A DNA stretch of 64,000 nucleotides from an uncultured Chthoniobacter sp. (GCA_964402065.1 CAYOAN010000001.1:200920-264919), one strand, 5' to 3'; shown: positions 1,857 through 60,562, counted from the stretch's first letter. Notes: generated by a model not told the origin, from the letters alone. Made by a program: numbers and translations.

Positions 1857-1996
1857 TAGAGCATTTTCAAAATTCTATAGCCGCGTATTGCGGCGTCACT
1901 CCGGTGCTCAAAACCTCGAGTATGAGATATACACTGCGTTTTTGCGCTCCTTGTTCCTGGTGCTACATCGGCTATCATATTTTTTAAAATGCTCTA
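1857..1996 (+). repeat. Family-1 MITE-like palindromic intergenic element, full copy (140 bp)
   Basis: Imperfect terminal inverted repeats: TAGAGCATTTTCAAAATTCTATAGCCG ... CGGCTATCATATTTTTTAAAATGCTCTA. Near-identical to 51239-51379. Confidence 0.85.
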
Positions 1997-2033
1997 CCCT
2001 CGTCACTGTTACCTTTTCTTCATGAATTTTTTG

Positions 2034-2061
2034 CTGTGACCCGCAACCTGTAACCTATAAC
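2034..2061 (+). promoter_or_regulatory. Tandem heptad array (CTGTGAC CCGCAAC CTGTAAC CTATAAC) 10 nt upstream of the coaD ATG
   Basis: Four head-to-tail 7-nt units read directly. The same motif class occurs upstream of 10 other genes. Confidence 0.6.
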
Positions 2062-2071
2062 CTGCCGTTTA

Positions 2072-8016: not shown

Positions 8017-8037
8017 ATGAAATGGTTTTATTTTTTC

Positions 8038-8065
8038 CTGTAGCCTGCAACCTCTAGCCTGTACC
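8038..8065 (+). promoter_or_regulatory. Tandem heptad array (CTGTAGC CTGCAAC CTCTAGC CTGTACC) 9 nt upstream of the uppS ATG
   Basis: Four contiguous 7-nt units read directly. Confidence 0.6.
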
Positions 8066-8074
8066 CTCTTTTCG

Positions 8075-8835: not shown

Positions 8836-8856
8836 CTGCAACCTGTGACCTGTAAC
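8836..8856 (+). promoter_or_regulatory. Tandem heptad array (CTGCAAC CTGTGAC CTGTAAC) 5 nt upstream of the ATG
   Basis: Three contiguous 7-nt units read directly. Confidence 0.6.
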
Positions 8857-8861
8857 TTATT

Positions 8862-9632
8862 ATGAATTCTTGGTCCTGGCAGCAAAACGAGATGCAGCCT
8901 TGTGGTGAAGGTGTTCCTCTCAACGATCGTGGGTTTCGCTACGGCCAGCATCTTTTTGAAACAATTGCGATTCGAAATGGGGACGTTCTTTTTTTTGAAG
9001 AACATTGGAAAAGATTGATGCATGCAGCCGAGCGATATCATTTTCCAATTAATTATGCTTGGTATCAAAGTGTGAGCTATTTTTTAAAAAAAGAATCGTG
9101 GAATGATGGGATGTTAAGGATTTTTTTAACGGCGGGAGAAGGAGCGGCTTGTTCACCCATTGTGACTCCTCATTTATTTTTGCTGTGGGAAAAAGCGGAG
9201 TTTCCTTCGGAGGAAAAATTACGCGAAGGAATCAGTGTTGTTTCATTGGACCAACCCACAGGGATTAATTCTTGGGGAGAAAAAACAGGAAATTATTGGG
9301 AACATCTCCTTGCTCTTAACTCAGCGCGGCAAGCTGGTGCTGAAGAGGGACTCGTTTTTGATGTAGAGGGTTTTTTAATTTCTGCGGCGATGGCCAATAT
9401 CATTCTTTGGATGAATGATGGACGCATTGTGACGCCGCCTCGCACTCGTGGTGCACGTGATGGAGTGATGTTGGCTCAAGCGCGACGTCAACTTCCTGAG
9501 CTAATGGCAGCTGATGTGAAGAGAAATAATTTGGAGAACATTATTGCGATGGTTGTGACAAATTCGCGCCTTGGAATCATGCCTGTAGCGGAGCTTGATG
9601 GGAGGAAGCTGGAGCATTTTTGGAACAGATAG
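8862..9632 (+). CDS. Fold-type IV PLP enzyme, aminodeoxychorismate lyase-like
   Basis: 256 aa. N-terminal LNDRGFRYGQHLFETI is typical of class-IV aminotransferases/ADC lyase. The short length favours PabC-like. Function is tentative. Confidence 0.7.
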   Translation: MNSWSWQQNEMQPCGEGVPLNDRGFRYGQHLFETIAIRNGDVLFFEEHWKRLMHAAERYHFPINYAWYQSVSYFLKKESWNDGMLRIFLTAGEGAACSPIVTPHLFLLWEKAEFPSEEKLREGISVVSLDQPTGINSWGEKTGNYWEHLLALNSARQAGAEEGLVFDVEGFLISAAMANIILWMNDGRIVTPPRTRGARDGVMLAQARRQLPELMAADVKRNNLENIIAMVVTNSRLGIMPVAELDGRKLEHFWNR

Positions 9633-9696: not shown

Positions 9697-9710
9697 TTGT
9701 AGCCTGTTAC
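9697..9710 (+). promoter_or_regulatory. Short heptad array (TTGTAGC CTGTTAC) 9 nt upstream of the mfd ATG
   Basis: Two units only. This is the weakest of the instances. Confidence 0.4.
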
Positions 9711-9719
9711 TCTTTTAAT

Positions 9720-14006: not shown

Positions 14007-15074
14007 ATGAGTTTTACTAAACTCTTTATTCCAGGGCCTGTTGAGGTTTCTCAAAAAACCCGTGAGGCTTTTGCTAAGCCGATGATTGGGCACCGTGGAG
14101 AAGAATTTAAGAGCCTCTATGCTTCCTGTCAGCCGCGATTGCAAGAGCTGTTTGGAACGACGAGACCGGTTTTTCTTGCGACTTCTTCAGCCTGGGGTGT
14201 GATGGAAGGAACACTGAGAAATTTAGCAAAAGGTAACGTCCTCAACTGCATGAATGGAGCGTTTTCAGATAAATGGTTTGAGGTTACTCAGCGTTGTGGC
14301 TGTGAAGCAGAGAAGCTTCAAGTTGATTGGGGAGCACCAATCACAAGCGAGCTGCTTGAGAAACGCTTGCAACAAGGAAAGATCGATGTTGTAACGTTGA
14401 TTCATAATGAGACATCGACAGGTGTTCTCAGCCCATTAGGAGAACTGGCTGTTGTTATGAAAAAATTTCCCGACGTGTTGTGGGTTGTAGACACAGTTTC
14501 TTCTTTTTCAACAATGCCAATTCCCATGGACAAATTCGGCATTGATGTCATGTTGACCAGCTCTCAAAAGGCTTTGGCGCTGCCTCCTGGGTTAGCCCTC
14601 TTTTCTGTTTCAGAAAAAGCAATGGCTCGTGCAGCTACAGTCAAGGGTCGTGGTTACTATTTTGATTTTCTTGAATTTCAAAAAAATCATGAAGGAAATA
14701 TGACGCCTAGCACGCCTTCCATTGGGCATATTTATGCTCTTGCTTCCAAGCTTGATGATATTTTTGAAGAAGGAATCGTACGGCGCTACGAACGGCATGC
14801 CTATACCAATGCGCTTGTTCATGAATGGGTGGTGCAACGAGGGTTTGATTTTTTCGCGCCCGAAGGATTTCGTTCCTTAGGGTTGACTTGTATTAAAAAC
14901 AATCAAGGAATTGACGTGGTAGCTTGGATTGCACGCCTCAAAAAAAAATATCAGTGCATCATTGATGGCGGTTATGGCCCACTTCAAGGAAAAACGTTCC
15001 GTATTTCTAACATGGGGGATGAAACTGCGGAGACGGTCTCGCAATTGCTAGCTTGGTTAGATGATGTTGCTTGA
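14007..15074 (+). CDS. Class-V aminotransferase (serine-pyruvate / alanine-glyoxylate type)
   Basis: 355 aa. FIPGPVEV N-terminus, PLP-lysine context TSSQKALALPPG. Confidence 0.85.
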   Translation: MSFTKLFIPGPVEVSQKTREAFAKPMIGHRGEEFKSLYASCQPRLQELFGTTRPVFLATSSAWGVMEGTLRNLAKGNVLNCMNGAFSDKWFEVTQRCGCEAEKLQVDWGAPITSELLEKRLQQGKIDVVTLIHNETSTGVLSPLGELAVVMKKFPDVLWVVDTVSSFSTMPIPMDKFGIDVMLTSSQKALALPPGLALFSVSEKAMARAATVKGRGYYFDFLEFQKNHEGNMTPSTPSIGHIYALASKLDDIFEEGIVRRYERHAYTNALVHEWVVQRGFDFFAPEGFRSLGLTCIKNNQGIDVVAWIARLKKKYQCIIDGGYGPLQGKTFRISNMGDETAETVSQLLAWLDDVA

Positions 15075-15292: not shown

Positions 15293-15313
15293 AAGTAGCC
15301 TGTAGCCTGTCTC
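15293..15313 (+). promoter_or_regulatory. Tandem heptad array (AAGTAGC CTGTAGC CTGTCTC) 7 nt upstream of the ileS ATG
   Basis: Three contiguous units read directly. Confidence 0.55.
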
Positions 15314-15320
15314 CCTTCTT

Positions 15321-18071
15321 ATGAGCCGTTATCGCGATACTGTCCTTCTACCTAAAACTGATTTTCCTATGCGCGCTGGTCTTGCTACGCGAGAACCGGA
15401 ACTGCTTGCTCGTTGGGAAAAAGAAAATCTCTACTTCAAAATTCAAGAAGCTCGTGCTGGAGCTCCTCGGTATGTATTGCATGATGGCCCTCCCTTCGCC
15501 AATGGCCAAGTGCACATGGGAACGGCGCTTAACAAGGTTCTTAAGGATCTAGTTGTTAAGTCAAAAACCATGCTTGGCTTTCAAGCACCTTTTGTTCCTG
15601 GATGGGATTGTCACGGATTGCCGATTGAATTTAAAGTTGTTAAATCTTCAAAAGGGTTAACGCCACTTCAAATTCGTGAGCAGTCAGATGCCTATGCACG
15701 CAAGTTCATTGATATTCAACGAGACGATTTCAAGCGTCTTGGAGTCTTTGGAGATTGGGAACATCCCTATCTGACGCTAGATCCAGGTTATGAAGCCACC
15801 ATCATTCGTTCTTTTTCTAAATTTGTAGAAAAAGGACTGGTTTACCAAAAGAAGAAGCCAGTCTATTGGAGCACCGGAGCACAAACAGCTCTGGCAGAGG
15901 CTGAGATTGAGTACCAAGAAAAAACTTCTCCAGCAATCTACGTCGCATTTCCGCTGGTAGTAGAAAAAGAAAGTTCGCCAAAATTTTCAAGCCTTACAGA
16001 TCTCTCGGTTGTCATTTGGACCACGACGCCTTGGACACTGCCTGCCAATGTTGCCATTGCTGTTAGCCCTGAGGCTACCTACGTTATTGTTCGAACAAAG
16101 AACCAACAGGGACTTGAAAAAAATTATCTTATTGCAGAATCTCGTGTGGAGAGTTTTTGTGAAGCATGTGCTTTAGAAAAAATCTCCCTTGGAGAAAAAA
16201 TCTTAGGGCGCGATCTTGAAGGGAAAATAGCAGAGCACCCATTTTTGCCTCGTACGGCAACATTGTATGGAGCCGATTTTGTAACGATGGATTCAGGAAC
16301 GGGTCTTGTTCATATCGCCCCTGGGCATGGTGAAGATGACTATGCTCTTGGGCTGCAAAAAAACCTTCCTGTCTTATCTCCTGTGGACGATGAAGGATGC
16401 TTTACCGAAGAATGTGGAGTTCCTGAACTGATTGGTAAAAATGTTTTTGTAGGAAATCCACTTGTTATTGCGATACTCGCAGCGAGAGGACTGCTCTTGG
16501 GGCATCAGGAATATCAGCATAGTTATCCACACTGTTGGCGTTCTAAAACACCAATCCTCTTCCGTGCTGTTGAACAATTTTTTATTAATATTGCTCAGCT
16601 CCGAGATCAAATGTTAGCAGGCATCGGTAATGTCGACTGGATTCCTGCCTGGGGCAAAAGCCGTATTAGCGCTGGAGTAGAGCGCTTGGATTGGTGCATC
16701 TCTCGCCAACGCTCATGGGGTGTTCCCTTGCCAATTTTCTATGACACTGAGAAAAAACCAATTCTCGAGCCTGCATTGATTCTTCAAATCGCTGATGTTT
16801 TTGACAAAGAAGGATCCAATGCTTGGTTTGCTTGGGATGATGCAACCTGGTGCCAACGCCTTGGAAAACCTGAAGGTTCTTTACAGCGTTTTTCATTAGA
16901 TATTCTCGATGTTTGGATTGAAAGTGGCGTCAGCCATGAAGCTGTTTTGCGTCAGCGCCCTGAACTCCAATTTCCTGCTGATCTTTATTTAGAAGCAACC
17001 GATCAACATCGTGGTTGGTTTCAATCTTCCTTGATGACCTCGGTTGCCTTAAATGAAGCTGCACCTTATAAAGCCGTTTTGACACATGGTTTTGTAGTTG
17101 ATGTGGACACACGTCAAAAAATTTCTAAGTCAAATCAAGGAGCCTCTGGTTATCAAAAACCGACCGAAGCCGCCCATTTTATCAAGACCTACGGTGCTGA
17201 TATTGTGCGCCTCTGGGCAGCAAGCGTTCAGTTCACAGATGAAGTTCCTTTCTCGGAAGAAATTTTTGCGCGTGTGACCGATTCATATCGTCGTATTCGC
17301 AATACGCTACGGATTTTATTAGGAAACATTCAGGGTTATGATGCAACAGAGCCTGCCGCAGCTTTAACAAGTATCGATGCTTGGATTTTAGAACGCTTGC
17401 AGCAGCTTGTGAACACCTGTCGCAAAGGCTATGAAGAGCTTGCTTTTCAAAAAGTGACACATGCCATCAATCAGTTTTGTACTGTTGATCTGAGCAGTCA
17501 CTACGTTGATGTTACGAAGGATCGGCTTTACTGTGATGGAAAAGATTCCGAAAGACGTCGCGCTACTCAAGCAACGATGGCCCGTATTTTCGAAACTATT
17601 ACCAAGTTACTAGCACCGATCTTAGTTTTCACAACAGAAGAAGCGTGGAGTTACTATCGTCCTAACAGTTCAATCCACCTGGAACTGCTTCCAGGGGAGG
17701 ACGATCTTGATGTGGCCTTACTGCAACGGTATGACAAACTTTTAGCACTTCGAGGTCAAATTGCGCAAGCTCTTGAAAAAGCACAACGTGATGGTGTTAT
17801 TGCAAACCCATTAGAAGCTTTTGTCAAAGTAACGACAAAGGAGCCAGAAATTTTGAAGGCAGCAACAACGCCAGCAGATGTTTCAATGATTGAAGAGTTT
17901 TTTATCCTCAGCCATCTTGAAATTGAAGAAGGCGAGGAAAAAGTCACCATTGCTTTGGAGAGTGCTGAAAAATGTGAACGCTGCTGGCGCCACCGCGCGG
18001 ATGTCGGCTCACATGTGGAGCATCCAACGTTGTGCGGACGATGTGCCAATGCCGTTGAAACCAAGAGTTAG
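15321..18071 (+). CDS. ileS: Isoleucine--tRNA ligase (type 1)
   Basis: 916 aa. HIGH-type PFANGQVHMGTALNK, KMSKS-type KISKS, C-terminal zinc motif CERCWRH...CGRC. Confidence 0.97.
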   Translation: MSRYRDTVLLPKTDFPMRAGLATREPELLARWEKENLYFKIQEARAGAPRYVLHDGPPFANGQVHMGTALNKVLKDLVVKSKTMLGFQAPFVPGWDCHGLPIEFKVVKSSKGLTPLQIREQSDAYARKFIDIQRDDFKRLGVFGDWEHPYLTLDPGYEATIIRSFSKFVEKGLVYQKKKPVYWSTGAQTALAEAEIEYQEKTSPAIYVAFPLVVEKESSPKFSSLTDLSVVIWTTTPWTLPANVAIAVSPEATYVIVRTKNQQGLEKNYLIAESRVESFCEACALEKISLGEKILGRDLEGKIAEHPFLPRTATLYGADFVTMDSGTGLVHIAPGHGEDDYALGLQKNLPVLSPVDDEGCFTEECGVPELIGKNVFVGNPLVIAILAARGLLLGHQEYQHSYPHCWRSKTPILFRAVEQFFINIAQLRDQMLAGIGNVDWIPAWGKSRISAGVERLDWCISRQRSWGVPLPIFYDTEKKPILEPALILQIADVFDKEGSNAWFAWDDATWCQRLGKPEGSLQRFSLDILDVWIESGVSHEAVLRQRPELQFPADLYLEATDQHRGWFQSSLMTSVALNEAAPYKAVLTHGFVVDVDTRQKISKSNQGASGYQKPTEAAHFIKTYGADIVRLWAASVQFTDEVPFSEEIFARVTDSYRRIRNTLRILLGNIQGYDATEPAAALTSIDAWILERLQQLVNTCRKGYEELAFQKVTHAINQFCTVDLSSHYVDVTKDRLYCDGKDSERRRATQATMARIFETITKLLAPILVFTTEEAWSYYRPNSSIHLELLPGEDDLDVALLQRYDKLLALRGQIAQALEKAQRDGVIANPLEAFVKVTTKEPEILKAATTPADVSMIEEFFILSHLEIEEGEEKVTIALESAEKCERCWRHRADVGSHVEHPTLCGRCANAVETKS

Positions 18072-18090
18072 AGTTGTGCAGTAAAATTTT

Positions 18091-18118
18091 CTGTAACCTG
18101 CAACCTGCAATCTATAAG
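18091..18118 (+). promoter_or_regulatory. Tandem heptad array (CTGTAAC CTGCAAC CTGCAAT CTATAAG) 9 nt upstream of ATG 18128
   Basis: Four contiguous units. A fifth degenerate unit, CTAGTGG, follows. Confidence 0.6.
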
Positions 18119-18127
18119 CTAGTGGCC

Positions 18128-18628: not shown

Positions 18629-19057
18629 ATGAATCTTCCGCGAAGCCCTTATGACGCAATTCATGGCCTCGTCTATTTTGGGCGATTACTTGATAAAATT
18701 CGGTTGCATGCTGCAGGCAAGTTGCCTGAAGTTTATATAGCCAACCTTGGTCATGACCAAAAATTCGATGGAGCCTGTCTTCGGTTTTTAGGCGTTTCTT
18801 ATCAAGCATTGGAACAAGTTGTGGTCGCTGGAGCTTCTGATGAAGAGGCTTGGGAATGGTGTTCCAAAAACGGAAAGATGCACACCGAAGAAGAGATCAT
18901 GATTTGGAATTCCTATATTGCCAAATCCGGTTGGCGTGACCCAATGGCAGAAATATTACAACGCCGTCTCAAAGAAGGTGGCTGGGAGAGCCGAACAGAC
19001 ATTCAAACCTTATTTGATTATATTGATCTTGATGAGGGGAGAGAACAAAAGCGCTAA
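18629..19057 (+). CDS. Conserved hypothetical protein (DUF5069-like)
   Basis: 142 aa. The N-terminal PRSPYDAIHGLVYFGRLLDKIR pattern resembles DUF5069 as I recall it. Function unknown. Confidence 0.6.
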   Translation: MNLPRSPYDAIHGLVYFGRLLDKIRLHAAGKLPEVYIANLGHDQKFDGACLRFLGVSYQALEQVVVAGASDEEAWEWCSKNGKMHTEEEIMIWNSYIAKSGWRDPMAEILQRRLKEGGWESRTDIQTLFDYIDLDEGREQKR

Positions 19058-19059
19058 CA

Positions 19060-19782
19060 CTATTTCTCTTTTCTCGGAGCCACATAATAATGTTCAGGCC
19101 AATTGATCTGGCGACGTAACAACCAGAAAACACCGATAAGGTCAAGGACGCCGTGGCTAGCTCGTTTTAAAATCGTATAGTTTGATTGACCAAAGCGACG
19201 AGGGCGATGATTGACAGGAAATTGACCGAGTGTGAGGCCTGCATGCTCGAGCATCGCAATCATGTAGCATTGCATTTGATTAAAGGGCATGAGAAATCGA
19301 AGGTATTCTTTGCGAATAACTTTTAGTGTGCAGCCTGCATCGCGCACCGTATCGCCAGTAAAAAATTTGCGCACCTTATTTGCAACTTTAGAGGCAGCCT
19401 TAACTTGCCAGCTATCTTTGCGGTGTTTTCTATAACCACAGACGATATCGTAATTTTGTGATTCACGAACCAACATGGGAATATCAGCAGGATCATTTTG
19501 CCCATCGCCGTCCATCAAGACGCAAATAGGATTAGAAGCTGCTAACAAGCCAGCATAGAGAGCAGCACTTTGGCCTAAGTTTTTTGAAAAAGAAACCAAA
19601 CGAACATCACTAAATTTCCTAATCAAAGATTCTGTGTGGTCCCGACTCCCATCATTAACAGCAATAATTTCAGCATGAGGATTCGTTGAGCGTGTTTCTT
19701 CAAGAACAGCAACAACGTTATCTTTTTCGTTATAAAAAGGAATGATAATAGAAATATTGAGCGAGGCTTGATCTTCAGGCAT
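19060..19782 (-). CDS. Family 2 glycosyltransferase (polyprenol-phosphate sugar synthase-like)
   Basis: 240 aa. GT-A motifs SIIIPFYNE, VNDGSRDHT, DGDGQNDP. Confidence 0.9.
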   Translation of the reverse strand: MPEDQASLNISIIIPFYNEKDNVVAVLEETRSTNPHAEIIAVNDGSRDHTESLIRKFSDVRLVSFSKNLGQSAALYAGLLAASNPICVLMDGDGQNDPADIPMLVRESQNYDIVCGYRKHRKDSWQVKAASKVANKVRKFFTGDTVRDAGCTLKVIRKEYLRFLMPFNQMQCYMIAMLEHAGLTLGQFPVNHRPRRFGQSNYTILKRASHGVLDLIGVFWLLRRQINWPEHYYVAPRKEK

Positions 19783-19783
19783 G

Positions 19784-19818
19784 AGGATAGCGTACAGATT
19801 AGAGGCTACAGGTTACAG
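19784..19818 (-). promoter_or_regulatory. Tandem heptad array (minus strand: CTGTAAC CTGTAGC CTCTAAT CTGTACG CTATCCT) ending 1 nt before the ATG
   Basis: Five contiguous units on the gene strand. Confidence 0.6.
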
Positions 19819-19843
19819 GAAAAAATTAAGGACTGCCCCTATG

Positions 19844-20545: not shown

Positions 20546-21061
20546 TTACATAATGACGATGCCTTTTTCCATGGCACGTGCCAATATTTTGGTAGCATCA
20601 GAACTGTAAGGGCGCGTGGAAGCTATTTCGTTGTCATCATCCTCGGGCGTGTCCGTGTTTTTTTTGCTATCATTCTTTTTTTTAAATGGAGGTCGGCGAG
20701 CACCTCTTTGTCCAATGTTAGCAATGATTTGATCCTGGGTTGTGGCTGCTTGTAAGGTGGACTTAGCCGTGTCATCAACGGTGGTGTATTGATTTCCTGG
20801 TGTGGCTTGGCCTGTTGCTGTTGACCCAAAAACAAAAGCTGTTGCATCGTTGGACTGCATTGCATAAGCATCAGGCGCAACAGTGCCTGGTGCTACGCTC
20901 ACACTGGCCTCAGTTCCGCTACTCACGCCTGTCGATGTTTCACCTTGCCCGCCAGTTGGAGGTGTTGAGCTGTTGGAGGGAGAAAATTGATCATTGTTAG
21001 CAGCAAGTGAAGATTGAATCATTTGCGCTGGCGAGATCATGGTGATGGGATGATTAGCCAT
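20546..21061 (-). CDS. Hypothetical low-complexity (S/T/G/A/Q-rich) protein
   Basis: 171-aa ORF, 6 nt upstream of the cyclase gene on the same strand, with a heptad array in front of its ATG. No recognisable domain. Basic/acidic tail ..KKKNDSKKNTDTPEDDDNE.. Confidence 0.55.
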   Translation of the reverse strand: MANHPITMISPAQMIQSSLAANNDQFSPSNSSTPPTGGQGETSTGVSSGTEASVSVAPGTVAPDAYAMQSNDATAFVFGSTATGQATPGNQYTTVDDTAKSTLQAATTQDQIIANIGQRGARRPPFKKKNDSKKNTDTPEDDDNEIASTRPYSSDATKILARAMEKGIVIM

Positions 21062-21082
21062 GATAGAAATTATAGGTTATAG
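21062..21082 (-). promoter_or_regulatory. Heptad array (minus strand: CTATAAC CTATAAT TTCTATC) abutting the ATG
   Basis: AT-rich variant of the heptad motif, read directly. Confidence 0.45.
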
Positions 21083-24186: not shown

Positions 24187-24228
24187 TGCGAGGGTGAGTG
24201 GTGGATTACAAAACAGAATAAAAAATTT

Positions 24229-24256
24229 CTGTAACCTGTGCTCCGTAAGCTATAAT
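24229..24256 (+). promoter_or_regulatory. Tandem heptad array (CTGTAAC CTGTGCT CCGTAAG CTATAAT) 8 nt upstream of the ATG
   Basis: Four units. The last unit contains a perfect TATAAT. Confidence 0.55.
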
Positions 24257-24264
24257 CTTCTCGT

Positions 24265-32250: not shown

Positions 32251-32285
32251 TTGTACGTTGTAGTGTGTAAACTATAACCTGTAGC
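32251..32285 (+). promoter_or_regulatory. Tandem heptad array (TTGTACG TTGTAGT GTGTAAA CTATAAC CTGTAGC) 7 nt upstream of the ffh ATG
   Basis: Five contiguous units in register. Confidence 0.55.
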
Positions 32286-32292
32286 TTTTCTT

Positions 32293-33657
32293 ATGTTTTC
32301 TCGTCTTTCTGATCAACTTCAACAAACTTTTAAAAATCTTCGAGGACAAGGCCGCATTACGGAATCAAATGTTTCCGAGGCGCTTCGAGAAGTCCGTCTA
32401 GCCTTGCTAGACGCTGATGTTCATTTTCAAGTTGCTAAAGATTTTATAGCGCGTGTGAAAGAAAAAGCATTGGGGGAAGAAGTGCTTAAGAGCGTTACTC
32501 CTGGCCAACAGATCGTCAAAATTTTTCACGATGAATTAACTCAATTGCTCGGCGGAGATGCCGCTCCTCTCAACTTAAATAAACCAGGGCGTCTTTTAAT
32601 GGTCGGTTTGAATGGCGCTGGAAAAACGACTTCTTCTGCAAAGCTTGCGAAGTGGTTGAAAGGCCAAGGTCATCATCCAATGCTTGTTGCACTTGATTTA
32701 GTGAGGCCTGCAGCGATTGAGCAATTGGTTGTTCTCGGTAAGCAGATAGATGTCCCTGTGTTTGCACCAGCCTCTGGTGCCAAAGATGTAATGGTTGTGG
32801 TTAAGGAGGCTCTTGCATGGTGCGACCAGCAACAAGGAAATGTTACAATCTTTGATACAGCTGGGCGTCGAGAGATTAATGAAGCACTAATCAGTGAGCT
32901 GAAACAACTCAAAGAGTTTCTAAAGCCAGAAGAAATTTTATTAGTCTGCGATGGAGCTACTGGACAACAGGCTGTCAGCGTGGCTGAACGTTTTCATGCG
33001 GCACTTGGATTAACTGGTCTCATTCTGACAAAGCTTGATGGAGATGCTCGTGGCGGTGCAGCACTTTCATTGCGCTCCGTGACTGGAAAGCCAATCAAAT
33101 TTGTAGGTGTCGGAGAGAAGCTTGATCAATGGGAGCTATTTCATCCTGACCGTTTAGCGGGGAGGATTCTTGGGATGGGAGACATTGTCAGCTTTGTTGA
33201 AAAAGCCGCAGAGGCGGTTGAGATGGATGAAATGATGCAGTTAGAAAAAAAACTGAAAACATCATCTTTGGATCTCAATGATTTTTTAATGCAGCTCAAA
33301 ATGATTCGACGCATGGGACCATTAGAAAATCTTCTTGGAATGTTGCCAGGAGGAGCGAATCTTCCTACAAATGTTCTTAATGGAAAAGAGCTCACTCGAA
33401 TTGAGGCAATTATTTTTTCGATGACTCCACAGGAGCGCCAGCGCCCGGAGATCCTGAATGCACGCCGACGCCAGAGAATTGCTCAAGGTAGTGGGACGAG
33501 CGTAACGGAGGTGAATAATCTCCTTCTTCGCTTTCAGCAATTAAAGAAGATGACAAAAAATATGGGGCAAATGAAAAAAATGCTGGCTCAATTTGGGAAA
33601 AAAGGTTCTAATACTTCACTTTCTCAACATTTACCAAATCGATTCCCATGGCAGTAG
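32293..33657 (+). CDS. ffh: Signal recognition particle protein
   Basis: 454 aa. N-domain MFSRLSDQLQQTFKNLRG, GTPase GLNGAGKTT / DTAGR / TKLDG, Met-rich M-domain. Confidence 0.97.
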   Translation: MFSRLSDQLQQTFKNLRGQGRITESNVSEALREVRLALLDADVHFQVAKDFIARVKEKALGEEVLKSVTPGQQIVKIFHDELTQLLGGDAAPLNLNKPGRLLMVGLNGAGKTTSSAKLAKWLKGQGHHPMLVALDLVRPAAIEQLVVLGKQIDVPVFAPASGAKDVMVVVKEALAWCDQQQGNVTIFDTAGRREINEALISELKQLKEFLKPEEILLVCDGATGQQAVSVAERFHAALGLTGLILTKLDGDARGGAALSLRSVTGKPIKFVGVGEKLDQWELFHPDRLAGRILGMGDIVSFVEKAAEAVEMDEMMQLEKKLKTSSLDLNDFLMQLKMIRRMGPLENLLGMLPGGANLPTNVLNGKELTRIEAIIFSMTPQERQRPEILNARRRQRIAQGSGTSVTEVNNLLLRFQQLKKMTKNMGQMKKMLAQFGKKGSNTSLSQHLPNRFPWQ

Positions 33658-33899
33658 CAATTAGACTTCGTCGCGAAGGAGCGCGTAATCATCCTTTTTA
33701 CCGTATCACTGTGGCAGACCAACGTAGCCCGCGTGATGGCAAATTTATTGAACTTATCGGACACTACGATCCAAAGAAAAAAGAAGAAAATTTTTCTATT
33801 GATTTAGAGCGCGCCGAATATTGGTTGAGCGTTGGAGCTCGCCCATCTCAAACTGTAAAAAGTTTTATTACTAAGGCTCAAAAAAAGGCTGGTAAGTAA
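33648..33899 (+). CDS. rpsP: 30S ribosomal protein S16
   Basis: 83 aa. MAVAIRLRREGARNHPFYRI. 10-nt overlap with ffh. Confidence 0.95.
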   Translation: MAVAIRLRREGARNHPFYRITVADQRSPRDGKFIELIGHYDPKKKEENFSIDLERAEYWLSVGARPSQTVKSFITKAQKKAGK

Positions 33900-40314: not shown

Positions 40315-40432
40315 TGAGTTTTAGGAAAACAAAACTATAAAATGCGAGTGCCTCAAAACTTTTGGCCCTACTTTCTTAAAGCTTCAGCGTTCTTTTCTGT
40401 AATCTCAAAGTAATTTAGCTATAACATTTTTT

Positions 40433-55795: not shown

Positions 55796-56410
55796 TCAAA
55801 AGTAATCTTTTTTTATTTCAGTGTTAGCAGTGCCATTCTCCCGCATTTCCCATTTTCTTTTTTCCTTTGTAGTCAATTGATCAAGGTCCTTTTTTGAAGG
55901 GAACTTAAAGCTGATTAGTTTTGAAGAGCTCGTATCCCAATCTACATCAAAGATGCACATTTTTTGCTCTTTGAACGGACTACCTTTAAAAGGATAAACT
56001 CCATAAATCAACCTGGCATTTTTTTTAAAAAAATGAACACCTACAACAAAGTAATAAGATGGTTCCTGTATGGGAGGATCACAATCGTAAGCCATCCAAT
56101 GATTGTCTTGGTAATGAACAATGGTGGCCATTGACCCTCCTGATAAATGAGAAACGATAAACAATGATTTTGAATCAGGTGTCCATTTAATATTTTGTAT
56201 GGAAAGAACAAGAGATTTTGAAAAGTCATTTTTAGAGGTTAAGCAATTATGAATTGTTAAAACTGTTTCTCTATCCCCAATAACCAACCTCGCAATATAT
56301 TTTTTGTTTGGTGATGGATATTCTTCATGACGTTCATATGCAACAGCCTCTTGCCCATGTATTAGACAGGTTAAAAATAATGAAAATAAAAAATTGCGAA
56401 AGAAGTTCAT
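55796..56410 (-). CDS. Cassette partner protein A: 204-aa signal-peptide protein of unknown family (candidate immunity/inhibitor)
   Basis: MNFFRNFLFSLFLTCLIHGQEA signal-like N-terminus. Its ATG lies 2 nt after the stop of the upstream gene. SPNKKYIA / WTPDSKSLFIV are beta-propeller-blade-like strings. The paralogue is at 58041-58655. Confidence 0.8.
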   Translation of the reverse strand: MNFFRNFLFSLFLTCLIHGQEAVAYERHEEYPSPNKKYIARLVIGDRETVLTIHNCLTSKNDFSKSLVLSIQNIKWTPDSKSLFIVSHLSGGSMATIVHYQDNHWMAYDCDPPIQEPSYYFVVGVHFFKKNARLIYGVYPFKGSPFKEQKMCIFDVDWDTSSSKLISFKFPSKKDLDQLTTKEKRKWEMRENGTANTEIKKDYF

Positions 56411-56412
56411 AT

Positions 56413-57174
56413 TTAGGATCCAGATGGATAGTAAGTAACTGTAGCATAAATGTCTCTATCATGATTAAATTGGTCAGAAGGATCTGTTGGAACTGGCCCT
56501 AATCCACCACTTCGCTCTTTAATGCCTAATCCGAGATCCTGAGCAGCTTTGATAGAAATTTCACCAACGCTATCTTTTTCAGGACCAAAGTCTCCTACAA
56601 TTGATGAGATAGATTTTATATATTGAGTTGAGTCAATGATGATAGGCCTACCACCTATCATACGCCAAGCGTATGTATAAAAATATACAGTTACATCTGC
56701 TCTGTCTCCCTTTTTGACACCTTGATTAATTAACCATATAGGAGCAACAACATAGGAATCAGTATCAGCATTGAGAGCTTTGTTATTTCTATGAAATGAT
56801 GTGTCCCCCTTATGATCGTAATCTCCATGAGAAGGTCCCGTTCCATCATCATCAAGTTTAATTTGGCCGTTATATGTTAATGGCCCTCTTACCATCATGA
56901 GAGGTAATTCTTCTTTAAATTCAGAAGCATTCTCGTTACTTGACTGATTTTCATAATCAGTTTCAATATTTTTATCGACACTAGTATTTTGATATTCTGC
57001 AGGTGTCTCGCTTTCCTCATTGGTTACTTCATTGCTAGTAGAGTAACAACCAATGCTTGAATAACTGCTAGCTGAAGAGTCAGAGTTGTACTCCGGAATA
57101 CTACTATAGGCAATAAGTTGATTTGGAAATAAAGTAGTCCATAGACAAAAAAGAAGGAGGAAAAATGGTTTCAT
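56413..57174 (-). CDS. Cassette protein A: 253-aa secreted protein with a GH75-chitosanase / double-psi-beta-barrel-like C-terminal domain (candidate glycan-hydrolase effector)
   Basis: Signal peptide MKPFFLLLFCLWTTLFPNQLIA, then an acidic S/N/E-rich linker. Motif order: LDDDGTG, GDTSF, LNADTDSYVVAP, GDRADVTV, IVGDFGP..VGEISIKAAQDLG. Confidence 0.8.
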   Translation of the reverse strand: MKPFFLLLFCLWTTLFPNQLIAYSSIPEYNSDSSASSYSSIGCYSTSNEVTNEESETPAEYQNTSVDKNIETDYENQSSNENASEFKEELPLMMVRGPLTYNGQIKLDDDGTGPSHGDYDHKGDTSFHRNNKALNADTDSYVVAPIWLINQGVKKGDRADVTVYFYTYAWRMIGGRPIIIDSTQYIKSISSIVGDFGPEKDSVGEISIKAAQDLGLGIKERSGGLGPVPTDPSDQFNHDRDIYATVTYYPSGS

Positions 57175-58040: not shown

Positions 58041-58655
58041 TCAAAAGTAATCTTTTTTTATTTCAGTGTTAGCAGTGCCATTCTCCCACATTTCCCATTT
58101 TCTTTTTTCCTTTGTAGTCAATTGATCAAGGTCCTTTTTTGAAGGGAGCTTAAAGCTGATTAGTTTTGGAGAGCCGGTATTCCAGTCTACATCAAAAATG
58201 CATATTTTTTGTTCTTTGAACGGACTACCTTTGGAAGGATAAACTCCATAAACTAGCCTAGCAAATTTTTTGAAGAAGTGAGCTCCAACAACAAAGTAAT
58301 AGCATGGACCCTTTACAGGAGGATCACAATTGTAAGCCATCCAATGATTGTCTTGGTAATGAACAATGGTGGCCATCGATCCTCCTGATAAATGCTCAAC
58401 GATAAATAGTGATTTTGAATCAGGCGTCCATTGAATATTTTCTACACGGGAAATAAGAGCTTGTGAAAAATCATCTTTAGAGGTTAAGCAATTATGAATT
58501 GTTAAAACTGTTTCTCTATCCCCAATAACCAACCTCGCAATATATTTTTTGTTTGGTGATGGATATTCTTCATGACGTTCATATGCAACAGCCTCTTGCC
58601 CATGTATTAGACAGGTTAAAAATAATGAAAATAAAAAATTGCGAAAGAAGTTCAT
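58041..58655 (-). CDS. Cassette partner protein B: 204-aa signal-peptide protein (candidate immunity/inhibitor), paralogue of 55796-56410
   Basis: The first 60 aa are identical to copy A. The central region is diverged (DDFSQALISRVENIQW vs NDFSKSLVLSIQNIKW; PPVKGPCYY vs PPIQEPSYY). Same 2-nt coupling to the upstream gene. Confidence 0.8.
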   Translation of the reverse strand: MNFFRNFLFSLFLTCLIHGQEAVAYERHEEYPSPNKKYIARLVIGDRETVLTIHNCLTSKDDFSQALISRVENIQWTPDSKSLFIVEHLSGGSMATIVHYQDNHWMAYNCDPPVKGPCYYFVVGAHFFKKFARLVYGVYPSKGSPFKEQKICIFDVDWNTGSPKLISFKLPSKKDLDQLTTKEKRKWEMWENGTANTEIKKDYF

Positions 58656-58657
58656 AT

Positions 58658-59422
58658 TTAGGATCCAGATGGATAGTAAGTAACTGTAGCATAAATGTCT
58701 CTGTTTTGATTGACTTGATCATGAGGATCTGTTGGAACTGGTCCTAGTCCATTAGAGCGTTCCCTGATACCCAGTCCCAAATCCCTAGCTGCCTTGATAG
58801 ATATTTCACCGACGTCATCTTGCACAGGCCCAACATCTCCTACTATTGATGATATTGATTTTGTATAACAATTACAGGGGTAGGTTACTAAGTTATTATT
58901 GGCATCTAAGCCACTATTATATTCATAAAAATATACGGTTACATCGGCTCTATCTCCCCCTCTAACACCTTGACTGGATAACCATCCAGGAGCGACAACA
59001 TAGGAATCAGTATCAGCATTGAGAGCTTTGTTATTTCGATGAAATGCTGTATCGTTGTTGTGCTTTTTATCATTATGAGATGGTCCCGTTCCATCATCAT
59101 CAAGTTTAATTTGGCCGTTATATGTTAATGGCCCTCTTACCATCATGAGAGGTAATTCTTCTTTAAATTCAGAAGCATTCTCGTTACTTGACTGATTTTC
59201 ATAATCAGTTTCAATATTTTTATCGACACTAGTATTTTGATATTCTGCAGGTGTCTCGCTTTCCTCATTGGTTACTTCATTGCTAGTAGAGTAACAACCA
59301 ATGCTTGAATAACTGCTAGCTGAAGAGTCAGAGTTGTACTCCGGAATACCAGTATAGGCAATAAGTTGATTTGGAAATAAAGTAGTCCATAGACAAAAAA
59401 GAAAGAGGAAAAATGGTTTCAT
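58658..59422 (-). CDS. Cassette protein B: 254-aa secreted GH75/DPBB-like protein, paralogue of 56413-57174
   Basis: The N-terminal roughly 115 aa are nearly identical to copy A. The catalytic-domain core is diverged, but DDDGTG, LNADTDSYVVAP, GDRADVTV and IVGDVGP..VGEISIKAARDLG are retained. Confidence 0.8.
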   Translation of the reverse strand: MKPFFLFLFCLWTTLFPNQLIAYTGIPEYNSDSSASSYSSIGCYSTSNEVTNEESETPAEYQNTSVDKNIETDYENQSSNENASEFKEELPLMMVRGPLTYNGQIKLDDDGTGPSHNDKKHNNDTAFHRNNKALNADTDSYVVAPGWLSSQGVRGGDRADVTVYFYEYNSGLDANNNLVTYPCNCYTKSISSIVGDVGPVQDDVGEISIKAARDLGLGIRERSNGLGPVPTDPHDQVNQNRDIYATVTYYPSGS

Positions 59423-59687: not shown

Positions 59688-60527
59688 CTAAGCGCCTAAA
59701 TCAATAGAGTGATTTTTTAATGCAGGTAGCCATTCTTGAGCCCAAGCAATAACGGTGTCGATTCCTCTTTCTAGCTCAATAGTTGGTTGCCATGAAAGAT
59801 CATGATGATACTGCGTAGATTCTAACAGCTCTTCTTTGTTTTGATGCTGGTGATCACCAATAAGGGTTACGACATCTTCAAAACTTACGTTCAGGCGATT
59901 GCAAATTAAAGACACAAGGTCTCGAACTGAAATGAGGTGATTGTTAGAAAAATGATAAATCTCTCCAGGGACTCCCTCGTAAACTACCCTGAAGATGCCG
60001 GCAGTGATGTCATTGATATGAATAAAGGCTTGCTTGGTGTGGCCACCATCATGAAGGAGAAATTTTTTTTCTGATAAAATAGAGAGAATGATTTTAGGAA
60101 TGAGCTCATGAACTTGCTGACCGGGGCCGTAAACATGACTCATTGGAGCTATGACAACAGAAGAAGTTTTGGTAGTTGTGTTCCGTTGATAGCAATTCTC
60201 CTTCAGTGAGGAAACAGAGACATACTTCAGAGGCTGATTTTTTAATTGATCATGAAAGTCGAGCTGAACATCACCCATGCAATGAATAATATAATCTGGA
60301 TTATAATCATTGATCATCGAGATGGCATTATCAGGATGAGCACCCAAACTGAGTTGCTTTAGGGTAAGGCGGTGAGCGCTTCCTACTTTCCAATGATAAG
60401 GTGTAAACGGAATACTTTTTTTGGGGACGTAGCTTATCCCTAGTACAGTGAGCCCTTGAGAGAGTGCATGGTGAACAAAATGACTTCCCGAAAAAGAATG
60501 ACTTCCAATAATAACGATTTTTTCCAT
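59688..60527 (-). CDS. Divergent NAD-dependent epimerase/dehydratase-family protein (catalytic motif apparently degenerate)
   Basis: 279 aa. The N-terminal Rossmann-like IVIIGSHSFSGSHF and HVYGPGQ are conserved. The region where S..YxxxK is expected is shortened (..ENCYQRNTTTKTS..), with no clear YxxxK. Confidence 0.75.
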   Translation of the reverse strand: MEKIVIIGSHSFSGSHFVHHALSQGLTVLGISYVPKKSIPFTPYHWKVGSAHRLTLKQLSLGAHPDNAISMINDYNPDYIIHCMGDVQLDFHDQLKNQPLKYVSVSSLKENCYQRNTTTKTSSVVIAPMSHVYGPGQQVHELIPKIILSILSEKKFLLHDGGHTKQAFIHINDITAGIFRVVYEGVPGEIYHFSNNHLISVRDLVSLICNRLNVSFEDVVTLIGDHQHQNKEELLESTQYHHDLSWQPTIELERGIDTVIAWAQEWLPALKNHSIDLGA

Positions 60528-60541
60528 GGTGTTAGATTTCC

Positions 60542-60562
60542 TCTGCAGGCTATAGCCTATAA
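60542..60562 (-). promoter_or_regulatory. Heptad array (minus strand: TTATAGG CTATAGC CTGCAGA) 14 nt upstream of the ATG
   Basis: Read directly. It coincides with the tail of the inverted family-2 copy. Confidence 0.45.

What the first reader, a model, noticed from the sequence alone, without database searches (positions are those of the whole stretch)
18091..18125. Arrays of tandem CTGTAAC-like heptads immediately upstream of at least 11 start codons
At 11 loci the 14-35 nt just 5' of a start codon consist of 2-5 head-to-tail imperfect 7-nt units. The consensus is CTGTAAC, with variants CTGCAAC, CTGTGAC, CTGTAGC, CTATAAC and CTCTAGC. The loci are 2034-2061 (coaD), 8038-8065 (uppS), 8836-8856, 9697-9710 (mfd), 15293-15313 (ileS), 18091-18118 (lspA), 19784-19818 (-), 21062-21082 (-), 24229-24256, 32251-32285 (ffh) and 60542-60562 (-). 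A weak instance lies at 40397-40425. The arrays are always in the gene orientation and end 1-14 nt before the ATG, where a Shine-Dalgarno would be expected, and no AGGAGG is present there. The last unit is often -10-like (CTATAAC/CTATAAT). Operon-internal genes, most of the polysaccharide cluster and the duplicated cassette lack them. I know of no described element of this kind. Possible roles are a core promoter giving near-leaderless mRNAs, a 5'-UTR translation element, or an operator for an abundant regulator.
Basis: seen in the sequence. Interest (0 to 1): 0.65.

Follow-up and report, generated by a model that had tools for sequence, protein, structure and literature searches.

The report
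Tandem heptad modules before start codons
In an uncultured freshwater Verrucomicrobium that does not use Shine-Dalgarno sites, about a dozen genes are preceded by a compact module (a T-run, about four CTGTAAC-like 7-nt repeats, then about 8 nt and the ATG). The module is conserved in relatives and is probably a promoter or leader signal of a kind not described before.

Summary
CTGTAAC-like heptads in register occur at the stated loci, always in gene orientation, and end 3-14 nt before an ATG. There are 6 arrays of at least 2 near-perfect units against 0.04 expected.

The organism is an uncultured Chthoniobacterales/'Spartobacteria' (Verrucomicrobiota) lineage with almost no Shine-Dalgarno sites. 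Close relatives carry the same arrays, often as 4 perfect units, but gain, lose and resize them at orthologous genes. More distant relatives carry other 7-8-nt units at the same place.

The typical module is a T-run, 4 units, a partial 'CT(G)', about 6 nt and then the ATG. That is 35-39 nt from array start to ATG. Each unit junction forms a TAnnnT hexamer. The last one lies a median of 6 nt from the ATG, which is the signature of promoters for leaderless mRNAs.

My best reading is a compact promoter giving leaderless or very short-leader mRNA (about 0.4). The main rival is a transcribed, G-poor, Shine-Dalgarno-independent leader (about 0.33). Modules built from units that lack any -10-like box, and modules within the atp gene cluster of relatives, favour the rival.

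Only mapping of transcription start sites can decide. I found no published description.

The parts
2027..2071 (+). Module upstream of the coaD-like gene (ATG 2072). It comprises T-run 2027-2032, units CTGTGAC CCGCAAC CTGTAAC CTATAAC at 2034-2061, and tail ctgccgttta.
   Evidence: Array start to ATG is 38 nt. Junction hexamer TAACCT lies 8 nt from the ATG.
8031..8074 (+). Module upstream of uppS (ATG 8075). It comprises T-run 8031-8036, units CTGTAGC CTGCAAC CTCTAGC CTGTACC at 8038-8065, and tail ctcttttcg.
   Evidence: This is the top weight-matrix hit (36.4 bits). The L007 orthologue has no heptads but keeps a T-run about 38 nt before the ATG.
8836..8861 (+). Three units CTGCAAC CTGTGAC CTGTAAC (8836-8856) plus ttatt, before ATG 8862 of a class IV aminotransferase. 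There is no T-run.
   Evidence: The array is absent at the L007 orthologue.
9697..9719 (+). Weak two-unit array TTGTAGC CTGTTAC (9697-9710) before mfd (ATG 9720). TACTCT lies 6 nt from the ATG.
   Evidence: (score within the shuffle range).
15293..15320 (+). ileS module AAGTAGC CTGTAGC CTGTCTC CCTTCTT, running in phase up to ATG 15321.
   Evidence: The module is conserved upstream of ileS in L005-L008 (3 good units plus 2 degenerate ones), while the flanking intergenic DNA is not alignable. Four of the five genomes have TTGCTT, TTGCCT or TTGATC 18 nt upstream of the TAGCCT/TAACCT junction hexamer.
18083..18127 (+). It comprises A/T-run 18083-18090, units CTGTAAC CTGCAAC CTGCAAT CTATAAG at 18091-18118, tail ctagtggcc and ATG 18128. 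It begins 12 nt after the ileS stop codon (TAG 18069-18071).
   Evidence: It is present in L007 and replaced by CT-rich tracts in L005 and L008. It is identical in four metagenome contigs of the same population.
19783..19825 (-). Module upstream of a GT2 glycosyltransferase (ATG 19782, minus strand). It comprises T-run 19820-19825, units CTGTAAC CTGTAGC CTCTAAT CTGTACG, and tail ctatcctc.
   Evidence: Orthologous arrays occur in L005 and L008. Its orientation follows the gene, not the replication strand.
21062..21082 (-). Units CTATAAC CTATAAT plus ttctatc before ATG 21061 (171-aa protein of unknown function).
   Evidence: The orthologues keep both flanks but hold 1 (L005), 3 (L008) or 4 (L007) units, which indicates change of unit number by slippage.
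24220..24264 (+). Module upstream of a PMT_2/ArnT-like glycosyltransferase (ATG 24265). It comprises A/T-run, units CTGTAAC CTGTGCT CCGTAAG CTATAAT at 24229-24256, and tail cttctcgt.
   Evidence: Unit 1 and the last unit (TATAAT) are kept and the middle units have decayed.
32251..32292 (+). ffh module TTGTACG TTGTAGT GTGTAAA CTATAAC CTGTAGC plus ttttctt, before ATG 32293.
   Evidence: In L310, a relative with 91% identical Ffh, the same position holds a different heptad family (CTCATTA/CCCGTTA). L314 (92%) has none.
40393..40432 (+). Relic module before an epimerase gene (ATG 40433). It comprises T-run, CTGTAAT, 15 nt of non-repeat sequence, CTATAAC and tail atttttt.
   Evidence: Only the first and last units survive, at the usual 36-nt distance.
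60542..60562 (-). Doubtful instance TTATAGG CTATAGC CTGCAGA, 14 nt before ATG 60527.
   Evidence: It is semi-palindromic and scores on both strands. A GAGG lies between it and the ATG, and the gene's N-terminal part has no epimerase match.

Best explanation
The arrays are the body of a compact, self-contained promoter placed directly against the start codon.

In the standard module a T-run sits 37-43 nt before the ATG, where an UP element or -35 contact would be. It is followed by four heptads. Every unit junction reads TA(A/G)C|CT, which is a TAnnnT -10-type hexamer. The last such hexamer ends about 6 nt before the ATG. RNA polymerase would therefore start at, or within a few nucleotides of, the A of the ATG. 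That would give a leaderless or very short-leader mRNA, which suits an organism that lacks Shine-Dalgarno sites.

The 7-nt period means slippage can add or remove units without destroying a -10 box in the right register. That would explain how modules appear, resize and vanish between close relatives.

Shown: the geometry, the hexamers, the conservation and the turnover.

Inferred: that RNA polymerase uses them and where transcription starts.
For: - Position and orientation: all strong arrays lie just upstream of a co-oriented ATG, on both strands.
- Fixed geometry: array start to ATG is 35-39 nt in 14 of 18 modules of the clade. The T-run abuts unit 1.
- The junction hexamer of the last unit is TAnnnT in 10 of 11 modules of this genome. 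Its gap to the ATG over 21 modules is 3-12 nt, with a median of 6. The register is non-random: 14 of 16 independent loci fall in 3 of the 7 phases (p=3e-4).
- This matches the published signature of leaderless genes. In Deinococcus, TANNNT lies 6-7 bp upstream of the ORF with T1, A2 and T6 invariant (PMC12340547). In M. tuberculosis, TANNNT lies at -7..-12 of the transcription start site with no -35 motif (PMC3898074).
- Unit 1 is the best kept: 0.2 mismatches against 1.4-1.6 for units 2-4. 40397-40425 keeps only the first and last units, like a two-box promoter.
- At ileS, four of five genomes keep TTGCTT, TTGCCT or TTGATC 18 nt upstream of a junction hexamer, although the surrounding intergenic DNA has diverged.
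- Arrays at ileS are conserved across genomes with 83-88% IleS identity whose flanks no longer align, which indicates purifying selection.
- There are no Shine-Dalgarno sites to serve these genes.
- In L084 the sense array is the 3' arm of a 28-bp terminator-like hairpin that ends 8 nt before the ATG. The downstream gene there needs a promoter inside the module.
Against: - By E. coli standards the boxes are weak. TAACCT matches the -10 consensus at 3 of 6 positions. CTGTAA matches the -35 consensus at 3 of 6. The TG is one base out of register for an extended -10.
- Close relatives build the same architecture from units with no possible -10. L314 atpF has no TA at all. L312 atpF has T-run, 4 x CCAACTG and the ATG at 37 nt, with TGAACT at -12..-7.
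- Short G-free repeat spacers fill 28-36-nt gaps between genes of the atp cluster (atpH-atpA, atpG-atpD). Internal promoters there would be unexpected.
- The 5-10 nt between array and ATG are about 82% pyrimidine and 8% G (my count), like the transcribed start regions of tightly packed genes. This is unexplained if those bases are not transcribed.
- In array-less genes, TAnnnT at gap 5-7 is not enriched beyond position-specific composition: 13 observed against 11.5 expected.
- The motif is not used in single copy near other ATGs.
- The TGTAAC-N15-18-TAnnnT two-box pattern occurs upstream of only one gene without an array.
- No array was found upstream of a tRNA or other RNA gene, but almost none were available to test.
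- The tests for a special last unit are weak (p=0.22 and 0.057).
Confidence: 0.4

Rival explanations
1. The module is transcribed and forms the translation-initiation region of a Shine-Dalgarno-independent mRNA. A U-run, a likely target of ribosomal protein S1, is followed by about 36 nt of G-poor, weakly structured repeat RNA that leads the ribosome to the AUG. Transcription starts further upstream, or the gene is co-transcribed with its upstream neighbour. The repeats matter through composition and length rather than through their exact sequence.
For: - The genome lacks Shine-Dalgarno sites. All genes, including tightly packed ones, have a T-rich, G-poor -15..-1 region, with 7-8% G at -10..-1.
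- Relatives use many different units, all G-poor on the sense strand: CCAACTG, CTCATTA, CAACTTT, TTCAACG, CTTCAGC, TTCCATC and TCTTTCA.
- Modules and G-free repeat spacers occur within the atp gene cluster. CTGTAAC modules occur 56-77 nt after co-directional genes, as in ileS-lspA.
- Array-less orthologues carry CT-rich tracts at the same place. L008 lspA has TATAAT 53-58 nt upstream of such a tract.
- The arrays have no stable structure (z-scores -1.5 to +1.4).
- There is a precedent. [quoted passage not shown]
- A length of about 36 nt equals the upstream reach of a 30S initiation footprint (from my own knowledge).
Against: - A generic unstructured leader does not predict a fixed heptad register relative to the AUG (p=3e-4), nor the near-perfect first unit.
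- CTGTAAC arrays are not especially G-poor (14% G, against 17-20% in ordinary upstream DNA). They are unusually C-rich.
- The T-run lacks a -10-type hexamer in 10 of 16 modules by my count. It is therefore not itself the promoter, and no conserved promoter is seen further upstream.
- In L084 and L310 the sense array is locked in a long hairpin whenever the upstream arm is co-transcribed. That is the opposite of an open leader.
- The folding energies are no weaker than those of shuffled sequences.
Confidence: 0.33
2. The arrays are by-products of replication slippage in a stretch between an upstream T-run and the ATG that tolerates insertions. They have no function of their own beyond not disturbing expression.
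For: - Unit number differs among orthologues with both flanks conserved. At g21061 there are 1, 2, 3 or 4 units.
- Arrays are present or absent at orthologous genes of close relatives.
- Within an array, the A/G at unit position 6 changes in concert. At ileS, L008 has all AAC and L007 has all AGC.
- Heptad microsatellites of this and of permuted units are about equally common in viral contigs: 41 against 22 and 94.
Against: - Independent slippage would amplify a different local seed at each locus. Yet 11 or more dispersed loci of one genome share one unit family.
- Orientation, register and the preference for four units are all constrained.
- The ileS arrays persist where the flanks have diverged beyond alignment.
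- No arrays occur downstream of genes or inside genes in the window.
Confidence: 0.1
3. The heptads are binding sites (an operator or activator array) for an abundant DNA- or RNA-binding regulator that reads a 7-nt register. One candidate is a cold-shock-domain protein, whose binding site is about 7 nt.
For: - One unit family occurs at many genes of one genome, which implies a common reader.
- Lineage-specific units suggest co-evolution with a trans-acting factor.
- Many targets are cell-envelope genes: uppS, lspA, GT2, PMT_2, an epimerase and ffh.
- The units TGTAAC, TGCAAC and TGAAAC resemble -35 boxes of ECF sigma factors. This resemblance comes from my own memory and was not tested.
Against: - The targets have no coherent function (ileS, mfd and coaD are among them), and the window is rich in envelope genes anyway.
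- Several unit families coexist in one genome. L007 has CTGTARC, CGTTACY and TTACTCG.
- Orthologues swap families or lose arrays altogether.
- The 'CGT' -10 box of ECF promoters is absent at the required 16-17-nt distance.
- A 7-bp period puts successive sites on different faces of the DNA helix.
Confidence: 0.07

Closest known systems
Promoters of leaderless genes: a TANNNT -10 box adjacent to the ORF (Deinococcus-Thermus, Actinobacteria; PMC12340547, PMC3898074, PMC2238952)
   Same: A TAnnnT hexamer with T1, A2 and T6 kept lies a median of 6 nt upstream of an ATG. No Shine-Dalgarno site and no good -35 box is present. The genes have no common function.
   Different: Here the box is one junction of a tandem 7-nt array, preceded by a T-run at a fixed distance. 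The taxon is Verrucomicrobiota. No genome-wide single-copy TANNNT signal could be shown. Transcription start sites are unknown.
Heptanucleotide simple-sequence repeat (ATCTTTC)n upstream of Haemophilus influenzae hmw1A/hmw2A (PMC12721329, PMC8262952)
   Same: Both are tandem 7-nt, pyrimidine-rich, G-poor units between a promoter region and the start codon. In hmw they are transcribed from the first repeat onward. In relatives of the window organism (L084, L310), heptad arrays also form long hairpins upstream of the ATG. TCTTTCA, a rotation of the same unit, occurs in L009 and L013.
   Different: hmw is a single phase-variable virulence locus with at least 11 repeats, an RBS further downstream and RNase III processing. 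Here 2-5 units abut the ATG of about a dozen housekeeping genes. Unit number is stable within the population (L001-L004 are identical). No hairpin partner exists in the window.
Cyanobacterial STRR (short tandemly repeated repetitive) heptamers (mentioned in PMC2670836; the consensus sequences are from my own memory)
   Same: Both are families of 7-bp tandem repeats dispersed in the non-coding regions of one genome. Their function is unknown, and some can form hairpins.
   Different: The phylum and unit sequences differ. STRR are not known to sit at a fixed distance and orientation in front of start codons.
Shine-Dalgarno-independent, unstructured translational enhancers (E. coli atpE U-rich region, TMV omega leader; from my own knowledge)
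   Same: Both are G-poor, repeat-containing leaders with little structure, preceded by or containing U-rich tracts. Both are used where Shine-Dalgarno pairing is weak or absent.
   Different: Those are single, experimentally defined leaders. It has not been shown that the arrays here are transcribed.

Membership tests
Leaderless-gene promoter (-10 box adjacent to the ORF) | TANNNT hexamer with T1, A2 and T6 conserved | tested here: met
   10 of 11 modules of this genome have it at the junction of the last unit (TAACCT, TACCCT, TAAGCT, TACGCT, TAATCT, TAGCTT and others). mfd has TACTCT shifted by one base.
Leaderless-gene promoter (-10 box adjacent to the ORF) | Hexamer ends about 6-7 bp upstream of the start codon | tested here: met
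   Over 21 modules the gaps are 3, 5x3, 6x8, 7x5, 8, 9x2 and 12, with a median of 6. The published value is 6-7 bp.
Leaderless-gene promoter (-10 box adjacent to the ORF) | Primary transcript 5' end at or next to the start codon | not testable with these tools
   No transcriptome data could be reached. dRNA-seq or mapping of metatranscriptome reads is needed.
Leaderless-gene promoter (-10 box adjacent to the ORF) | The motif is a genome-wide positional signal upstream of many ORFs | tested here: inconclusive
   For non-array genes with at least 40 nt of upstream space, 17 were observed against about 6 expected by within-region shuffles. After removing weak arrays, the count was 13 against 11.5 under a position-specific composition null. 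Only about 130 genes were available.
Phase-variable heptanucleotide repeat in a promoter or 5'UTR (hmw type) | Tandem 7-nt units between promoter and coding sequence | tested here: met
Phase-variable heptanucleotide repeat in a promoter or 5'UTR (hmw type) | Repeat number hypervariable within a population, switching expression | tested here: not met
   Four metagenome contigs of the same population are identical at lspA and at 19818. The clade strongly prefers 4 units. Number varies only between species, with 1-4 units at g21061.
Phase-variable heptanucleotide repeat in a promoter or 5'UTR (hmw type) | Repeats form one arm of a long 5'-UTR hairpin | tested here: not met
   The window modules fold no better than shuffled sequences and have no inverted partner. 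The feature is met in the relatives L084 and L310.
Cyanobacterial STRR | Occurs in heterocystous cyanobacteria with the STRR consensus heptamers | tested here: not met
   The host is Chthoniobacterales (Verrucomicrobiota). The unit CTGTAAC is not a rotation or complement of the STRR units as I recall them.
Shine-Dalgarno ribosome-binding site | Purine-rich GGAGG-like core 5-10 nt upstream of the start codon | tested here: not met
   None occurs in any array tail. In the whole window 4 of 49 starts have one, against 16% background.
ECF-sigma promoter | -35 box with an 'AAC' core, plus a 'CGT'-type -10 box 16-17 nt downstream | tested here: not met
   The units resemble the -35 box (TGTAAC, TGCAAC), but no CGT motif lies at the required spacing in any module. 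The consensus is taken from my own memory.
Known RNA families (Rfam) | Match to a curated covariance model | tested here: not met
   No hit at gathering threshold in the window, L005, L007 or L008. In six related metagenome loci (L058, L060, L070, L071, L073, L090) the only hits were four microRNA-family matches in L058 with E-values from 3e-6 to 0.08, all far below their gathering scores.

The most novel reading that the evidence does not exclude
In a Shine-Dalgarno-less branch of Verrucomicrobiota, gene expression signals are built from short tandem repeats. A portable module of about 45 nt (a T-run plus four 7-nt units) serves as the complete start-proximal signal, whether promoter, ribosome-loading site or both. 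It is read by a factor that recognises a 7-nt register. It is created, resized and replaced by slippage, so that each lineage evolves its own unit 'dialect'. This would be a microsatellite-based alternative to the promoter plus Shine-Dalgarno arrangement.
Probability: 0.2. Interest if true: 0.85.

Novelty: new variant of a known kind. Interest (0 to 1): 0.6.

Why it matters
How bacteria without Shine-Dalgarno sites mark gene starts is only partly understood. It is essentially unstudied in Verrucomicrobiota, an abundant freshwater, soil and gut phylum.

A short, repeat-built module may supply the promoter and/or the ribosome-loading region for housekeeping genes. If so, it would have three consequences:

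- It would explain expression in these organisms.
- It would improve gene-start and operon prediction in their many metagenome-assembled genomes.
- It would show a way in which slippage can create and tune expression signals quickly.

It would also provide a compact expression part for genetic work in Verrucomicrobia.

Tried and rejected
- **Replication-oriented motif (Chi or KOPS type):** rejected. Minus-strand genes carry minus-strand arrays.
- **Structured RNA element or riboswitch:** rejected. No Rfam hits, and folding z-scores lie around 0.
- **Alternative Shine-Dalgarno site:** rejected. The heptads have the same sense as, not the complement of, the h44/h45 region of 16S rRNA as I recall it. 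No 16S sequence of the clade was available, so this was not pursued.
- **Stop codons in all three frames (TAA, TAG or TGA in each unit; 7 mod 3 = 1):** rejected. This is true for CTGTARC. It fails for the common CTGCAAC variant and for the other unit families.
- **The T-run as the U-tail of an upstream terminator:** rejected. No adjacent GC-rich hairpins were found (and reading).
- **The T-run as the -10 box, with the array as leader from +1:** weakened. 10 of 16 T-runs contain no TAnnnT (my count).
- **The unit CTGTAAC as a specially widespread element:** rejected. 120 or more metagenome hits span 27-70% GC. In viral contigs the unit gives 41 hits, against 22 for the reversed unit and 94 for a permuted unit.
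- **Arrays upstream of tRNA or other RNA genes as a test for a promoter:** no informative case. The clade loci contain no tRNA. The one tRNA in a distant relative has an ordinary TTGTAC-N17-TATGAT promoter.
- **A generic sigma-70 consensus scan:** uninformative. 32 sites were found against 30 expected.
- **TGTAAC as the clade's general -35 box:** not supported. Only one array-less gene (ATG 218) shows the two-box pattern.
- **Arrays as amplified copies of a common single-copy -10 motif:** not supported.
- **One literature search on bare heptamer strings:** wasted.

Full report
**Observation**

Reading the stated loci shows in-register 7-nt units of the family CTGTAAC, CTGTAGC, CTGCAAC and CTATAAC. 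They lie in the orientation of the downstream gene and end 3-14 nt before an ATG that opens a long ORF. The lspA start is ATG 18128, which translates to a protein found unchanged in four metagenome contigs.

- Arrays of at least 2 units with at most 1 mismatch number 6, against 0.04 in Markov-1 shuffles.
- Tandem Repeats Finder independently reports period-7 arrays at five of the loci.
- A weight matrix trained only on relatives places six window arrays above the best score of any shuffle: 8038, 2034, 18091, 8836, 19805(-) and 32272. All six sit just upstream of a co-oriented ATG.
- The remaining loci are weak by score. ileS and the gene at 21061 are confirmed by stronger orthologous arrays in relatives. 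60542-60562 is doubtful.
- Pfam confirms the gene labels.

**Organism and translation context**

IleS-based retrieval places the window in uncultured Chthoniobacterales/'Spartobacteria' (Verrucomicrobiota). Four genomes have 83-88% IleS identity and GC of 41-46% (L005-L008). About twenty have 60-69% identity and GC of 52-62%.

The window has essentially no Shine-Dalgarno sites. A 4-mer core occurs in -20..-4 of 4 of 49 starts, against 16% background. All genes have a T-rich, G-poor -15..-1 region. Some Verrucomicrobia are already listed as 'SD-scarce' (PMC10783764).

**Anatomy**

The standard module has five parts:

- an A/T-run ending in 4-7 T;
- four heptads;
- a partial unit 'CT(G)';
- about 6 further nucleotides;
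- the ATG.

Array start to ATG is 35-39 nt in 14 of 18 modules of the clade. Each junction reads TA(A/G)C|CT, a TAnnnT hexamer. The last one is TAnnnT in 10 of 11 modules of this genome. It ends a median of 6 nt before the ATG. The register is non-random: 14 of 16 independent loci fall in three of the seven phases (p=3e-4).

The unit next to the T-run is almost always perfect (0.2 mismatches), while later units decay (1.4-1.6). 40397-40425 keeps only the first and last units. The statistical case that the last unit is special is weak (p=0.22 and p=0.057).

**Comparative evidence**

L005, L007 and L008 carry the same arrays, often as four perfect units, at orthologous genes.

At ileS the array is kept in all five genomes although the flanking intergenic DNA no longer aligns. 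In four of them a TTGCTT, TTGCCT or TTGATC hexamer lies 18 nt upstream of a junction hexamer.

Elsewhere arrays turn over:

- uppS and the gene at 8862 have them in the window but not in L007.
- The gene at 14007 has one in L007 only.
- lspA has one in the window and L007, but CT-rich tracts in L005 and L008.
- The gene at 21061 keeps both flanks with 1, 2, 3 or 4 units in four genomes.
- L007 uppS has no heptads but keeps a T-run about 38 nt before the ATG.

More distant Chthoniobacterales lack CTGTAAC. They carry other 7-8-nt units at the same place and in the same orientation: CTTCAGY, CTAACAGY, TAATAGTC, TCTTTCA and TTCCATC. Periods 7 and 8 dominate the non-triplet tandem repeats of 24 loci.

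Loci retrieved through Ffh homologues extend this to very close relatives:

- ffh itself has a CTCATTA/CCCGTTA array in L310 (91% identity) and none in L314 (92%).
- L312 atpF has a T-run plus 4 x CCAACTG, 37 nt from the ATG.
- L312 ribH has CAGYCTY units, 38 nt from the ATG.
- L314 has G-free repeat spacers of 28-36 nt between atpH and atpA and between atpG and atpD.
- L314 also has an atpF array without a single TA.

**What it is not**

- It is not an RNA family or a stable structure.
- It is not a Shine-Dalgarno substitute by complementarity.
- It is not replication-oriented.
- It is not a terminator tail.
- It is not an ECF-type promoter, because no CGT box lies at the right spacing.
- It is not a specially widespread motif. 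The many metagenome and viral hits are matched by control heptads.
- An operator for one regulator fits poorly with the mixed gene functions and the turnover of units.

**Mechanism**

Two readings survive.

*(A) Compact promoter for leaderless or very short-leader mRNA.*

- The last TAnnnT lies 6 nt from the ATG, exactly as in Deinococcus and Actinobacteria.
- The T-run sits at -37..-43, where an UP element would lie.
- Alternatively, if the junction of units 3 and 4 is the -10 box, the T-run sits at -35 with a 17-18-nt spacer. The TTG hexamer of ileS has this same geometry.
- The first and last units are the constrained ones.
- In L084 the module follows a 28-bp terminator-like hairpin, of which the sense array is the 3' arm.

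*(B) Transcribed Shine-Dalgarno-independent leader.*

- It comprises a U-run followed by about 36 nt of G-poor, weakly structured RNA.
- It is favoured by the -10-less modules and the atp-cluster spacers of relatives.
- The pyrimidine-rich tails resemble those of all other genes.
- CT-rich tracts replace arrays in orthologues.
- The hmw precedent shows heptads transcribed from the first repeat onward.
- It is disfavoured by the fixed register and by the long hairpins of L084 and L310.

I could not show a genome-wide leaderless signal independent of composition. The motif is not used in single copy. No RNA gene with an array was available to test.

I commit to (A) at about 0.4 and put (B) at about 0.33. 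A dual role is possible. Upstream registers of the array could fire as well, giving 7- or 14-nt heptad leaders.

**Novelty**

Literature searches found no description of such modules in Verrucomicrobiota or elsewhere. The nearest known things are:

- -10 boxes adjacent to leaderless ORFs;
- the phase-variable hmw heptads;
- cyanobacterial STRR.

None combines a dispersed unit family, a T-run, a fixed four-unit geometry against the ATG of housekeeping genes, and lineage-specific unit turnover. I rate it a new variant of a known kind, of real interest. It can be decided by start-site mapping on genomes that are already public.

Noticed in passing
L084:1505-1612 (-) and L310:190-400 (+): In a GC-59% metagenome contig and in a close relative (Ffh 91% identical), an antisense-oriented heptad array lies upstream of the sense array. 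The two fold into very long hairpins (dG -46 and -61 kcal/mol, z -6.5 and -7.5) that end 8-10 nt before the ATG. This is reminiscent of the RNase III-processed hmw 5'UTR hairpin, or of a terminator fused to the next gene's module.
   Followed up: partly
L314:1821-8787 and L312:1-5422 (atp gene clusters of relatives): The spacers between atp genes (28-36 nt) start with a T-run right after the stop codon and are completely G-free repeats, such as CAACTTCAACTTTTAACTT. atpE-atpF is separated by 227-246 nt in both genomes and ends in a heptad or octad array.
   Followed up: partly
window 55796-57174 and 58041-59422 (- strand): This is a tandemly duplicated two-gene cassette (204 aa plus 253/254 aa). 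The two upstream regions are nearly identical and carry a canonical TTGACA-N17-TTTTAT/TTTTAG promoter-like site and a leader of about 15 nt. The genome therefore also holds E. coli-type promoters.
   Followed up: no
window 59688-60527 (-): This 279-aa ORF matches the epimerase profile only from profile position 161 onward (protein residues 121-191). It may be a truncated or rearranged epimerase gene next to the duplicated cassette.
   Followed up: no
window 21916 / 21934: Divergent genes have start codons only 17 nt apart, so each promoter must lie inside the other gene's coding region. There is no array here.
   Followed up: no
window 1857-1996: An inverted repeat (arms of 16-30 nt, 85-108 nt apart; TAGAGCATTTTCAAAA / TTTTTAAAATGCTCTA) lies in the 264-nt spacer upstream of the coaD module and ends about 38 nt before the array.
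   Followed up: no
L007:1904-1931, 19002-19148: The same genome that carries perfect CTGTAGC arrays also carries other heptad families upstream of other genes (CGTTACY, TTACTCG), including a divergent pair. Several unit 'dialects' therefore coexist in one genome.
   Followed up: partly
window 33640-33660: The rpsP (S16) reading frame (MAVAIRLRR...) appears to start at or overlapping the end of ffh in the window, and 5 nt after it in L312. L310 and L314 instead have 59-72-nt spacers with a conserved ...TAACATTATCGATTCCC ATG leader.
   Followed up: no
L307:100-188 (same genome, about 6 kb upstream of the window): mutS has a T-run followed by degenerate units (GATAGC CTGTAGC CTATGAA), about 25 nt of non-repeat sequence, and then CTGTAAC CTGTAAT CTGTTCT cc ATG. 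This is a twelfth module of this genome, with a split array.
   Followed up: partly
L090:3233-3456: A low-GC (0.41) metagenome contig has an 11-unit array (8 x CTGCAAC plus 3 x CTGTAAC) 6 nt before an ATG. It also has an oppositely oriented T-run plus 4-unit module that points at the 3' end of a convergent gene, with no ORF start after it.
   Followed up: partly
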